From the IMG/VR virus record IMGVR_UViG_3300035698_019127: a DNA stretch of 10,660 nucleotides. One strand, given 5' to 3'. A model generated the notes under the pieces. It was not told where the DNA came from. It was given only the letters and a program-made list of their open reading frames with translations, and did no database searches. Of this stretch, positions 8,035 through 8,613 are shown one piece after another (position 1 is the stretch's first letter; each line of letters starts with the position of its first letter). Position numbers and translations under genes: made by a program. This DNA comes from a virus.

Positions 8035-8613
8035 ATGTTCTATGGCTGCCGCATCCCCTGCAAATACCTCGTCACTTCCGGCATCGGACAGTCCAGCGCA
8101 CAGGCAGGTGCTGACCACTTCGAGACCTCCGCATATGACATCGCCCTTCTCGATGCTGGGATCGAGAACTTCAACATCATGATCTACACGAGCGTCCTCC
8201 CCCCGGAGTCCAGTCGGATCACCATGGAAGATGCCAAGGCACAAGAGCTGTTCCACCACGGGGCGGTCCTGGAGACGATCAAGGCAGAGCTGGACGGTGT
8301 GAAGGGGGAATACCTCTGCACGGGTGTGGGCACCTGCCATGTTCGGGAGTACCAGGAGATGGACGGAAGCTACATCCTCATCGGGGGCTTCGCCGCCGAG
8401 TACGAGGGCAACTCCTCAGAGGAGTACGCTGCCAAGGTGCTCCACAAAGACCTTGAGGGGATCTTCGCCCGACGCTATGGGGATGACCCTCACTACGAAA
8501 TGGTCGACGTGGACATCAACACCCGGGCCTTTGTCGTGGATGAGGACTACGGGGTGTGCTTCACAGCCCTGTGCTTCCTGACCTACAAAATCCCCGCTGT
8601 GATCGGGCCGTAG
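8035..8613 (+). CDS. Pyruvoyl-dependent arginine decarboxylase (PvlArgDC family) homolog, 192 aa
   Basis: Aligns by eye with M. jannaschii PvlArgDC: LVTSGIG...[27 protein letters not shown] versus [53 protein letters not shown] versus MEYEGKCSKKEAEK. C-terminal [13 protein letters not shown] versus GCAFAAAALWYK. The predicted self-cleavage site is Thr-Ser (YTS|VLPP), as in chlamydial AaxB. Confidence 0.8.
   Translation: [192 protein letters not shown]

What the first reader, a model, noticed from the sequence alone, without database searches (positions are those of the whole stretch)
8035..8613. Pyruvoyl-dependent arginine decarboxylase homolog (agmatine-forming) in a phage-like RNA-repair cluster
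PvlArgDC is a small self-processing enzyme best known from archaea and Chlamydia. Finding it in a phage-style operon is unusual. The predicted serinolysis site is Thr-Ser (YTS|VLPP), which is the chlamydial AaxB variant rather than the archaeal Ser-Ser. The product, agmatine, could feed polyamine synthesis and possibly nucleic-acid modification. Speculatively, it could also feed tRNA modification: in archaea agmatine is the substrate for agmatidine on the CAU anticodon of tRNA-Ile2, and a CAU tRNA lies 5 kb upstream. No TiaS-like gene is visible in this window, so that link is weak. The neighbouring GNAT-motif gene could act on the amine product. The family also contains non-decarboxylase pyruvoyl enzymes, so the substrate is not certain.
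Basis: partly seen in the sequence, partly recalled or inferred. Interest (0 to 1): 0.6.

Follow-up and report, generated by a model that had tools for sequence, protein, structure and literature searches.

The report
Arginine decarboxylase gene in huge phage
A fragment of a very large bacteriophage genome carries an intact gene for a small self-cleaving enzyme that most likely turns arginine into agmatine, a polyamine precursor; this enzyme type has not been reported in viruses in the literature and phage records searched here, but virus-encoded polyamine synthesis itself is already known.

Summary
ORF 8035-8613 (+, 192 aa) is a full-length member of Pfam PF01862 (PvlArgDC; E 9e-23). The AlphaFold model (pLDDT 96) matches only M. 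jannaschii PvlArgDC among solved structures. Asp35, Asn47, the Thr52|Ser53 cleavage site and Glu122 (= Mj Glu109) are conserved.

The window comes from a huge phage: neighbouring genes match Agrobacterium phage Atu_ph07, Salicola phage SCTP-2 and uncultured 460-735 kb phages. The protein belongs to a clade found only on phage-like metagenomic contigs (up to 435 kb, 59-74% identity). The best cellular match is 51%. There is no homologue in 50,697 GenBank phage records and no PHROG.

The position next to RtcB is not conserved. The neighbouring 457-aa protein has a GNAT-fold core but is common in huge phages that lack this gene. The agmatidine/tRNA idea lacks a TiaS-like gene and an archaeal host.

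In Bacteroidales, homologues sit in a PvlArgDC-agmatinase-deoxyhypusine-synthase-like gene order, and one viral contig keeps a deoxyhypusine-synthase-like gene nearby. This favours a polyamine-supply auxiliary gene. It is a new viral member of a known enzyme family, of moderate interest.

The parts
8035..8613 (+). Gene for a 192-aa pyruvoyl-dependent arginine decarboxylase (PvlArgDC, PF01862) proenzyme; stop codon TAG at 8611-8613
   Evidence: ORF. Pfam E 8.7e-23, full length. AF2 pLDDT 95.9. Foldseek top hits 1n2m/2qqd, E 9e-14, target TM about 0.8.
8025..8029 (+). Shine-Dalgarno AGGAG, 5 nt before the ATG; it lies in the 3' arm of an 8-bp hairpin (8014-8033)
   Evidence: Sequence. Hairpin listed, but the number of such hairpins is not above the shuffled expectation.
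8035..8190 (+). Predicted beta chain, residues 1-52 (5.7 kDa), released by serinolysis. Contains Asp35 and Asn47. No signal peptide.
   Evidence: Alignment to Mj PdaD. Mass. N-terminus compared with exported bacterial homologues.
8188..8193 (+). Thr52-Ser53 codons (ACG AGC): predicted self-cleavage site; Ser53 becomes the pyruvoyl cofactor
   Evidence: Ser53 is invariant in 30 and in 64 aligned sequences; Thr52 is present in all but the archaeal sequence. It aligns with the S53A position of PDB 1n2m.
8191..8610 (+). Predicted alpha chain, residues 53-192 (15.5 kDa), with an N-terminal pyruvoyl group. Contains Glu122-Tyr123 (= Mj Glu109-Tyr110).
   Evidence: The PDB entries for the E109Q and N47A mutants mark these as the studied catalytic residues.
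8660..10063 (+). Context only: RtcB RNA ligase gene, 46 nt downstream. Not a conserved partner.
   Evidence: Pfam RtcB E 4.8e-91. Absent near all other viral homologues.
6456..7829 (+). Context only: 457-aa conserved huge-phage protein (phrog_29287) with a GNAT-fold core around residues 160-270
8612..8643 (+). Intergenic motif AGGTTTCAACC-N10-CCGCGTAGTAGG between the PvlArgDC stop codon and the RtcB start. A second copy lies at 1419-1450, before the M50 peptidase gene. Possible phage promoter or regulatory site that would give RtcB its own control.
   Evidence: 0 matches in 200 shuffles. Function not tested. Absent from IMG/VR and from the fetched loci.

Best explanation
The gene encodes a cytoplasmic, self-processing pyruvoyl-dependent arginine decarboxylase carried by a huge bacteriophage as an auxiliary metabolic gene.

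Proposed mechanism:
1. The 192-aa proenzyme folds into the PvlArgDC alpha-beta-beta-alpha sandwich.
2. The Ser53 hydroxyl attacks the Thr52 carbonyl. This serinolysis, helped by Asn47 and Glu122, splits the chain into a 5.7-kDa beta chain and a 15.5-kDa alpha chain.
3. Ser53 is converted into an N-terminal pyruvoyl group on the alpha chain.
4. The pyruvoyl carbonyl forms a Schiff base with L-arginine, whose guanidinium group is held by Asp35. CO2 is released and agmatine is produced.
5. In the infected bacterium, agmatine would be converted to putrescine and higher polyamines by host enzymes, or by phage enzymes elsewhere in the genome. This raises the polyamine pool that supports translation, RNA stability and condensation of a very large genome.

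Shown here: family membership, fold, conservation of the cleavage and catalytic residues, viral origin, and the lack of a conserved partner gene.

Inferred: autoprocessing, arginine as the substrate, and the physiological use of agmatine.
For: Family, fold and active site:
- Pfam PF01862 full length, E 8.7e-23.
- PDB sequence hit to Mj PvlArgDC with Asn47, Ser53 and the EYEG motif aligned.
- D35, N47, S53, E122 and Y123 are invariant in 30 sequences that include Mj PdaD. D35, N47, S53 and E122 are invariant, and Y123 nearly so, in 64 sequences.
- AF2 pLDDT 95.9. The only Foldseek PDB hits below 1e-3 are PvlArgDC structures.

Viral origin:
- phrog_29287 and RtcB PHROG hits.
- Neighbours are 37-40% identical to proteins of 440-735 kb phages.
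- The closest homologues (59-63%) lie on 80-435 kb contigs with DnaB-intein, PolA and mostly ORFan genes.
- In the NJ tree the window falls in a clade whose members with informative context are all phage-like.
- The best match among 185,579 species genomes is 51%.

Cytoplasmic location:
- No signal peptide, unlike the Desulfovibrio-type bacterial clade.

Polyamine role:
- Bacteroidales loci L106 and L115 have PvlArgDC followed by an arginase-family (agmatinase-like) gene. L106 then has a deoxyhypusine-synthase-like gene, and probably L115 does too.
- Viral contig L017 (51% identity) has a deoxyhypusine-synthase-like gene 2 kb downstream.
- Giant-virus loci with a homologue have amine oxidases nearby.
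- Viruses are known to encode arginine decarboxylases of other folds for polyamine synthesis (PMC9992855).
Against: - No agmatinase, agmatine deiminase, N-carbamoylputrescine amidohydrolase or aminopropyltransferase gene is in the 10.7-kb window. The rest of the genome is unavailable.
- The NCBIfam equivalog models for arginine decarboxylase score far below their cut-offs (34 against 207; 33 against 107). Identity of function with the characterised enzymes is therefore not established by curated thresholds.
- The protein is only about 22% identical to the one solved structure.
- Gene neighbours across 14 phage loci are not conserved. Only one has a polyamine-related neighbour, while five have RNA-repair or translation genes within about 5 kb, which the polyamine-supply story explains only loosely.
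- The role of Asp35 in binding the guanidinium group rests on my recollection of the 2003 structure paper, which I could not retrieve.
Confidence: 0.62

Rival explanations
1. The enzyme is an arginine decarboxylase, but the agmatine (or the enzyme) serves the RNA-maintenance and translation module of huge phages rather than bulk polyamine supply. Examples would be an amine donor for a tRNA or RNA modification (an agmatidine-like mark on the phage tRNA-Ile2(CAU)), or a cofactor or protectant during RNA repair.
For: - The window gene lies between an RNA-ligase-like gene, the GNAT-like protein and RtcB.
- Independent phage loci with homologues carry RNA or translation genes nearby: Thg1 immediately upstream (L039/L040); HAD_SAK_1 about 1.8 kb away (L041); a cold-shock domain protein and a Ro60/TROVE protein within 1.4 kb (L046); Thg1 and EF-Tu 4-5 kb away (L128); bL12 and HAD_SAK_2 7-9 kb away (L042).
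- These loci come from different PvlArgDC subclades.
- The window tRNA(CAT) resembles tRNA-Ile, which needs a C34 modification.
Against: - There is no TiaS-like or other plausible agmatine-transferring enzyme in the window.
- Agmatidine is known only from archaea, whereas the relatives are bacteriophages.
- No single RNA gene is shared between the loci.
- Huge phages of this group are generally rich in RNA-repair genes (PMC7824862), and I could not measure the background frequency, so the proximity may be chance.
- T4-like phages carry similar tRNAs without any PvlArgDC.
Confidence: 0.1
2. The enzyme consumes arginine or protons rather than supplying a product. It would act like the chlamydial AaxB acid-resistance and arginine-depletion system, or would starve the host or competing phages of arginine.
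For: - AaxB is a characterised bacterial homologue that works in arginine:agmatine exchange (PMC2720952).
- Two cellular loci have amino-acid permease genes next to the homologue.
Against: - No antiporter or porin gene lies next to the window gene, and none was detected among the viral-locus neighbours scanned.
- A cytoplasmic enzyme without an exchanger gives no proton-motive benefit.
- There is no evidence of an acidic habitat.
Confidence: 0.1
3. The protein is a pyruvoyl-dependent decarboxylase with a different substrate (ornithine, lysine, histidine or a modified or peptidyl arginine), as happened when phage AdoMetDC homologues changed substrate.
For: - NCBIfam equivalog scores are far below their cut-offs.
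- The viral clade is at most 51% identical to any cellular protein and about 22% identical to the solved enzyme.
- Substrate switching among pyruvoyl enzymes in phages is documented (PMC9992855; PMC10407285).
- Peptidase or amidase genes recur next to homologues: Phospholip_B in L046 and L128, Peptidase_C1 in L001, Peptidase_C69 in Methanothrix.
Against: - Asp35, Asn47, Glu122 and Tyr123 are invariant from the archaeal enzyme to the viral clade.
- Only PvlArgDC, and not histidine decarboxylase, is matched by sequence or by fold.
- Bacterial homologues sit beside agmatinase-family genes.
Confidence: 0.13

Closest known systems
Methanocaldococcus jannaschii PdaD (PvlArgDC; PDB 1mt1, 1n2m, 2qqc, 2qqd)
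   Same: Same Pfam family and same fold (Foldseek E 9e-14, target TM about 0.8). Same positions for Asp35, Asn47, Ser53 and Glu109/Tyr110. Similar size..
   Different: Only about 22% identical. Thr-Ser rather than Ser-Ser at the cleavage site. About 27 extra residues, mainly in loops around positions 103-112 and 150-160. Encoded by a phage rather than an archaeon.
Chlamydia pneumoniae AaxB (CPn1032)
   Same: A bacterial-type PvlArgDC of about 195 aa that self-cleaves at Ser53 (PMC2720952). That AaxB has Thr52 is my recollection and was not checked with a tool.
   Different: AaxB works with the AaxA porin and the AaxC antiporter in one operon. No such genes are in the window or in the viral loci. 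I had no AaxB sequence to compare directly.
Bacteroidales PvlArgDC-agmatinase-deoxyhypusine-synthase-like gene cluster (loci L106, L115)
   Same: Homologous decarboxylase (31-34% identity) with the same motifs. It gives a genomic rationale for agmatine feeding polyamine synthesis.
   Different: The window gene is solitary, with no agmatinase or DS-like neighbour. Only viral contig L017 keeps a DS-like gene nearby.
Phage and virus arginine decarboxylases already described (pelagiphage HTVC201P AdoMetDC-derived pyruvoyl ADC; chlorovirus PBCV-1 PLP-dependent ADC)
   Same: Same proposed reaction and the same logic of a virus-encoded polyamine auxiliary gene (PMC9992855).
   Different: Unrelated protein folds. 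The PF01862 fold is mentioned in that survey only as a non-homologous archaeal comparison, not as a viral enzyme.

Membership tests
PvlArgDC (Pfam PF01862; PdaD/AaxB pyruvoyl-dependent arginine decarboxylases) | Full-length match to the family profile above the curated threshold | tested here: met
   81.4 bits against a cut-off of 22.7, residues 7-181 on profile positions 1-160 of 161
PvlArgDC (Pfam PF01862; PdaD/AaxB pyruvoyl-dependent arginine decarboxylases) | [quoted passage not shown] | tested here: met
   AF2 pLDDT 95.9. Foldseek against PDB: the twelve hits below 1e-3 are all Mj PvlArgDC chains, target TM 0.71-0.84.
PvlArgDC (Pfam PF01862; PdaD/AaxB pyruvoyl-dependent arginine decarboxylases) | Conserved serine at the self-cleavage site that becomes the pyruvoyl group (Mj and AaxB Ser53) | tested here: met
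   Ser53 (AGC, 8191-8193) aligns with the S53A position of 1n2m and is invariant in the 30- and 64-sequence alignments
PvlArgDC (Pfam PF01862; PdaD/AaxB pyruvoyl-dependent arginine decarboxylases) | Catalytic and processing residues Asn47 and Glu109, and substrate-binding Asp35 | tested here: met
   N47, E122 (= Mj E109) and D35 are invariant. The N47A and E109Q mutant structures are in the PDB. The role of D35 is from memory.
PvlArgDC (Pfam PF01862; PdaD/AaxB pyruvoyl-dependent arginine decarboxylases) | Score above the NCBIfam equivalog thresholds (same-function call) | tested here: not met
   NF009064 34.3 bits against 207; TIGR00286 32.8 bits against 106.95. The protein is a divergent subfamily, so function is inferred rather than assigned by the curated rule.
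PvlArgDC (Pfam PF01862; PdaD/AaxB pyruvoyl-dependent arginine decarboxylases) | Autoprocessing into alpha and beta chains, and arginine-to-agmatine activity | not testable with these tools
   Needs expression, SDS-PAGE or mass spectrometry, and an enzyme assay
Virus-encoded polyamine auxiliary metabolic genes (sensu Li et al. 2023) | Gene resides on a viral genome | tested here: met
   Neighbours match phrog_29287 and the RtcB and RNA-ligase PHROGs, and match proteins of 440-735 kb phages. Homologues lie on 28 IMG/VR contigs.
Virus-encoded polyamine auxiliary metabolic genes (sensu Li et al. 2023) | Further polyamine pathway enzymes supplied by the virus or the host | tested here: inconclusive
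   None in the window. A DS-like gene lies near the homologue in L017. The whole genome and the host are unknown.
Chlamydial AaxABC arginine:agmatine exchange system | Adjacent antiporter (AaxC) and porin (AaxA) genes | tested here: not met
   No permease or porin family in the window; none detected among the viral-locus neighbours scanned
Agmatidine (agm2C) tRNA-Ile2 modification pathway | TiaS-like agmatidine synthetase together with a tRNA-Ile2(CAU), in an archaeal setting | tested here: not met
   A tRNA-Ile-like CAU tRNA is present. No TiaS-like family in any window ORF. The relatives are bacteriophages and a related contig has bacterial bL12. The rest of the genome was not examined.

The most novel reading that the evidence does not exclude
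Huge phages have repeatedly recruited PvlArgDC into their RNA-repair and translation gene neighbourhoods because agmatine, or a polyamine made from it, is a dedicated component of phage RNA maintenance. It could be the amine donor for an anticodon modification of the phage tRNA-Ile2(CAU), or be needed for repair or protection of cleaved tRNAs. That would make it a viral agmatine-dependent RNA pathway in bacteria.
Probability: 0.08. Interest if true: 0.75.

Novelty: new member of a known kind. Interest (0 to 1): 0.42.

Why it matters
Viruses are known to make or modify polyamines, and phage arginine decarboxylases of two other folds have been characterised. This gene and its relatives (28 IMG/VR contigs, including 230-497 kb phages and giant-virus bins) would add a third, unrelated fold to the viral set. 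They also suggest that huge phages in particular top up agmatine or polyamines, plausibly to sustain translation and to neutralise very long genomes. The viral clade is compact, has no close cellular counterpart, and should be easy to test in E. coli. The loose but repeated proximity to RNA-repair and translation genes is a lead worth a proper statistical test.

Tried and rejected
- Conserved PvlArgDC-RtcB or RNA-repair operon: tblastn of all window proteins against 45 loci found RtcB only in two short contigs identical to the window. Rejected as a conserved operon.
- GNAT neighbour acting on the amine: the GNAT fold is confirmed, but the family is widespread in huge phages that lack PvlArgDC. 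Rejected as a specific partner.
- Known phages with the gene: megablast of the whole window, and tblastn with three divergent viral homologues against 50,697 phage records, gave no match. There was no PHROG either.
- Riboswitch or structured leader in the 205-nt upstream gap: no Rfam hit at E up to 1, and fold z-score -1.45. Rejected.
- Haloarchaeal or salt-in host, which would make agmatidine or hypusine relevant: the window proteins are not acidic overall. Rejected.
- Using the intergenic motif to find the parent genome in IMG/VR: no match.
- Retrieving the 2003 PvlArgDC structure paper to confirm the substrate contacts: not held. Literature searches for PvlArgDC or PF01862 in viruses found nothing beyond Li et al. 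2023.
- Histidine decarboxylase as an alternative family: not matched by Pfam or Foldseek.

Full report
**1. The observation**

An AGGAG ribosome-binding site lies 5 nt upstream of the start. Pfam PF01862 (PvlArgDC) matches essentially the whole protein against the whole profile (residues 7-181 on positions 1-160 of 161; E 8.7e-23; 81 bits against a gathering score of 22.7). This is not a chance match.

The two NCBIfam equivalog models for pyruvoyl-dependent arginine decarboxylase are hit only weakly (34 and 33 bits, against cut-offs of 207 and 107). The protein is therefore a divergent member of the family, not a close orthologue of the enzymes used to build those models.

**2. Active-site anatomy**

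A sequence search of the PDB finds the M. jannaschii enzyme (1n2m, 2qqd). The alignment places query Asn47, Thr52-Ser53 and Glu122-Tyr123 on Mj Asn47, Ser52-Ser53 (Ala53 in the S53A proenzyme) and Glu109-Tyr110.

I aligned 29 homologues with Mj PdaD. The invariant positions include Asp35, Asn47, Ser53, Glu122 and Tyr123. Thr52 is present in every sequence except the archaeal one. A 64-sequence alignment gives the same picture.

The Thr-Ser pair is the rule for the whole bacterial and viral branch, not a chlamydial peculiarity. AaxB is stated to self-cleave at Ser53 (PMC2720952). That it has Thr52 is my recollection.

The predicted products are a 5.7-kDa beta chain (residues 1-52) and a 15.5-kDa alpha chain (residues 53-192).

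An AlphaFold2 model built on the 64-sequence alignment is confident (mean pLDDT 95.9, pTM 0.89). Against the PDB, its only matches below E 1e-3 are twelve chains of Mj PvlArgDC (best E 9e-14, target-normalised TM about 0.8). Histidine decarboxylase, the other pyruvoyl enzyme with this general fold, is not matched by sequence or by structure.

**3. What genome is this?**

The window is all one strand. It encodes:
- an unassigned 300-aa protein (phrog_5889);
- an M50 peptidase;
- an HNH endonuclease whose ORF runs into a tRNA(CAT);
- an 851-aa protein with a major-vault-protein shoulder domain;
- a small RNA-ligase-like protein;
- a 457-aa protein;
- the PvlArgDC;
- RtcB;
- two small ORFs.

The 457-aa protein matches phrog_29287 end to end (E 4e-117). 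It is 40% identical to a protein of Agrobacterium phage Atu_ph07 (490 kb) and 37% identical to one of Salicola phage SCTP-2 (440 kb). The vault-like protein is about 40% identical to ORFs of uncultured phages of 462 and 735 kb.

The window is thus a piece of a huge phage of the Atu_ph07/SCTP-2 type. This is a group already noted for abundant RNA-repair genes (PMC7824862).

**4. Relatives of the decarboxylase**

A search of 5.8 billion proteins found 261 homologues. A profile search of 1.84 billion cluster representatives found only 965 at E up to 1e-3. The family is small.

The closest relatives (59-74% identity) are all metagenomic. Where there is context, it looks like phage:
- a 435-kb contig with an intein-containing DnaB, PolA, primase and several DNA methyltransferases;
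- 80-179 kb contigs made almost entirely of ORFans;
- a 338-kb contig;
- shorter ORFan contigs, one of which also carries bacterial-type ribosomal protein bL12.

IMG/VR holds 28 viral contigs with a homologue. These include phages of 230-497 kb and giant-virus bins with an NCLDV capsid gene nearby.

In a neighbour-joining tree the window protein sits in a clade whose members with informative context are all phage-like. The other clades are:
- further viral clades as sisters to the window clade;
- a cytoplasmic bacterial clade (Ignavibacteria, Dethiosulfatarculus, Omnitrophota);
- a Desulfovibrio-type clade;
- a separate giant-virus clade.

Among one genome for each of 185,579 prokaryotic species, the best match is 51% (Dethiosulfatarculus), followed by 42-48% (including Methanothrix). 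No homologue was found in 50,697 GenBank phage records with three different viral queries. None of the PHROG families matches.

**5. Is it linked to its neighbours?**

No neighbour is conserved. None of the other loci with a homologue has RtcB, the vault-like protein, the RNA ligase or the 457-aa protein within 10 kb. Only two short contigs identical to the window do.

A 32-nt bipartite motif occurs twice in the window: once directly after the PvlArgDC stop and before RtcB, and once before the M50 gene. If it is a promoter or regulatory site, RtcB has its own control.

**6. What does the family do in cells?**

In two Bacteroidales genomes the homologue is followed by an arginase-family (agmatinase-type) gene. 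In L106, and probably in L115, a deoxyhypusine-synthase-like gene comes next. This is a textbook arginine to agmatine to putrescine to triamine layout.

One viral contig (L017, 103.5 kb, 51% identity) retains a deoxyhypusine-synthase-like gene 2 kb downstream. Giant-virus loci have flavin amine oxidases nearby.

Other cellular neighbours include amino-acid permeases and pyruvoyl histidine decarboxylase.

The Desulfovibrio-type bacterial proteins all carry Sec-type signal peptides. The window protein starts five residues before the conserved R-I-P motif and has no signal peptide, so it should act in the cytoplasm.

**7. The tRNA/agmatidine idea**

The tRNA(CAT) at 2816-2892 is not initiator-like. 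It has C4:G69 and C5:G68 in the acceptor stem. Its best full-length match in E. coli genomes is annotated tRNA-Ile. Similar phage tRNAs are annotated inconsistently as Met or Ile. It is therefore probably a tRNA-Ile2.

In bacteria that tRNA is modified with lysine by TilS, and agmatidine is archaeal (established knowledge). Several points count against the link:
- No TiaS-like family was found in the window.
- The phage relatives infect bacteria.
- The window proteins are not acidic, as a salt-in halophile's would be.

I rate this link as unsupported. It is not strictly excluded, because most of the genome is unseen.

**8. An unexplained pattern**

In 5 of 14 independent phage loci, an RNA-repair, RNA-quality-control or translation gene lies within about 5 kb of the decarboxylase:
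- the window: RNA ligase and RtcB;
- L039/L040: Thg1 immediately upstream, and a weak exoribonuclease hit downstream;
- L041: HAD_SAK_1;
- L046: a cold-shock protein and Ro60/TROVE;
- L128: Thg1 and EF-Tu.

These loci come from different subclades. I could not measure the background frequency, and such genes are common in these phages, so this is a lead and not a finding. It fits loosely with polyamines acting mainly on RNA and translation.

**9. Comparison with what is known**

Virus-encoded arginine decarboxylases are known. One is an AdoMetDC-derived pyruvoyl enzyme in pelagiphages, and another is a PLP-dependent enzyme in chlorovirus PBCV-1. The survey that described them mentions the PF01862 fold only as a non-homologous archaeal comparison (PMC9992855). 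Searches of the held literature for PvlArgDC or PF01862 in phages, jumbo phages or giant viruses found nothing else. The present gene is therefore a new viral member of a known enzyme family, performing a function already known in viruses through other folds.

**10. Verdict**

Best explanation: a cytoplasmic, self-cleaving arginine decarboxylase used by a huge phage as an auxiliary gene to raise agmatine and polyamine levels. My confidence differs by step:
- about 0.9 that it is an active pyruvoyl decarboxylase;
- about 0.75 that arginine is the substrate;
- about 0.55 that polyamine supply is the purpose;
- 0.62 overall.

Interest is moderate (0.42).

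Noticed in passing
window 3136-5691 (+): 851-aa protein with a major-vault-protein shoulder domain (Pfam E 2e-25) and a weak vault repeat. It is about 40% identical to ORFs of uncultured 462- and 735-kb phages (LR756500/501/503). No PHROG or NCBIfam match. 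A vault-like protein in huge phages, next to RNA-repair genes.
   Followed up: partly
window 1419-1450 and 8612-8643 (+): Bipartite motif AGGTTTCAACC-N10-CCGCGTAGTAGG occurs twice (0 matches in 200 shuffles). Each copy starts at or just after a stop codon and ends 1 nt (M50 peptidase) or 16 nt (RtcB) before the next start codon. It could be a phage promoter or regulatory element. It is absent from IMG/VR and from all fetched loci.
   Followed up: partly
window 2816-2892 (+), overlapping the end of ORF 2197-2883: The tRNA with anticodon CAT and an encoded CCA is most similar to E. coli tRNA-Ile (80.8%) and has C4:G69 and C5:G68, so it is probably tRNA-Ile2 rather than tRNA-Met. The HNH endonuclease ORF runs 68 nt into it.
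   Followed up: partly
[not shown]
   Followed up: partly
proteins P0088-P0120 and P0045, P0051, P0072, P0078, P0080: Many bacterial PvlArgDC homologues (the Desulfovibrio-type clade, Dethiosulfatarculus, Omnitrophota) carry typical Sec signal peptides. This implies an exported or periplasmic pyruvoyl arginine decarboxylase, which I have not seen described.
   Followed up: no
L046 8613-10004 and L128 8122-9525; L001 10622-11455; L052 4696-6567: Peptidase or amidase genes recur next to PvlArgDC homologues. Phospholipase-B-like Ntn hydrolases lie directly upstream in two phage-like contigs (with a 4-nt overlap in L046). A papain-like Peptidase_C1 lies downstream in the 435-kb phage. Peptidase_C69 lies downstream in Methanothrix. 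This may be a peptide-to-arginine-to-agmatine module. It is not present in the window.
   Followed up: no
L020-L038 (IMG/VR GVMAG and related contigs): A separate clade of PvlArgDC homologues (32-36% identity, all with the YTS, N47 and EY motifs) sits on giant-virus (NCLDV) bins, beside a major capsid protein, PCNA, thymidylate synthase and flavin amine oxidases. The held literature does not appear to report a PF01862 enzyme in giant viruses.
   Followed up: partly
window about 1068-1412 (+), within listed ORF 888-1412: There is probably a small membrane protein gene (hydrophobic segments YSLLLALVLFFGMGSLGG and GFCVLLLTGLFTGAGFTILV) between the 300-aa gene and the M50 peptidase gene. It was not analysed further.
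   Followed up: no
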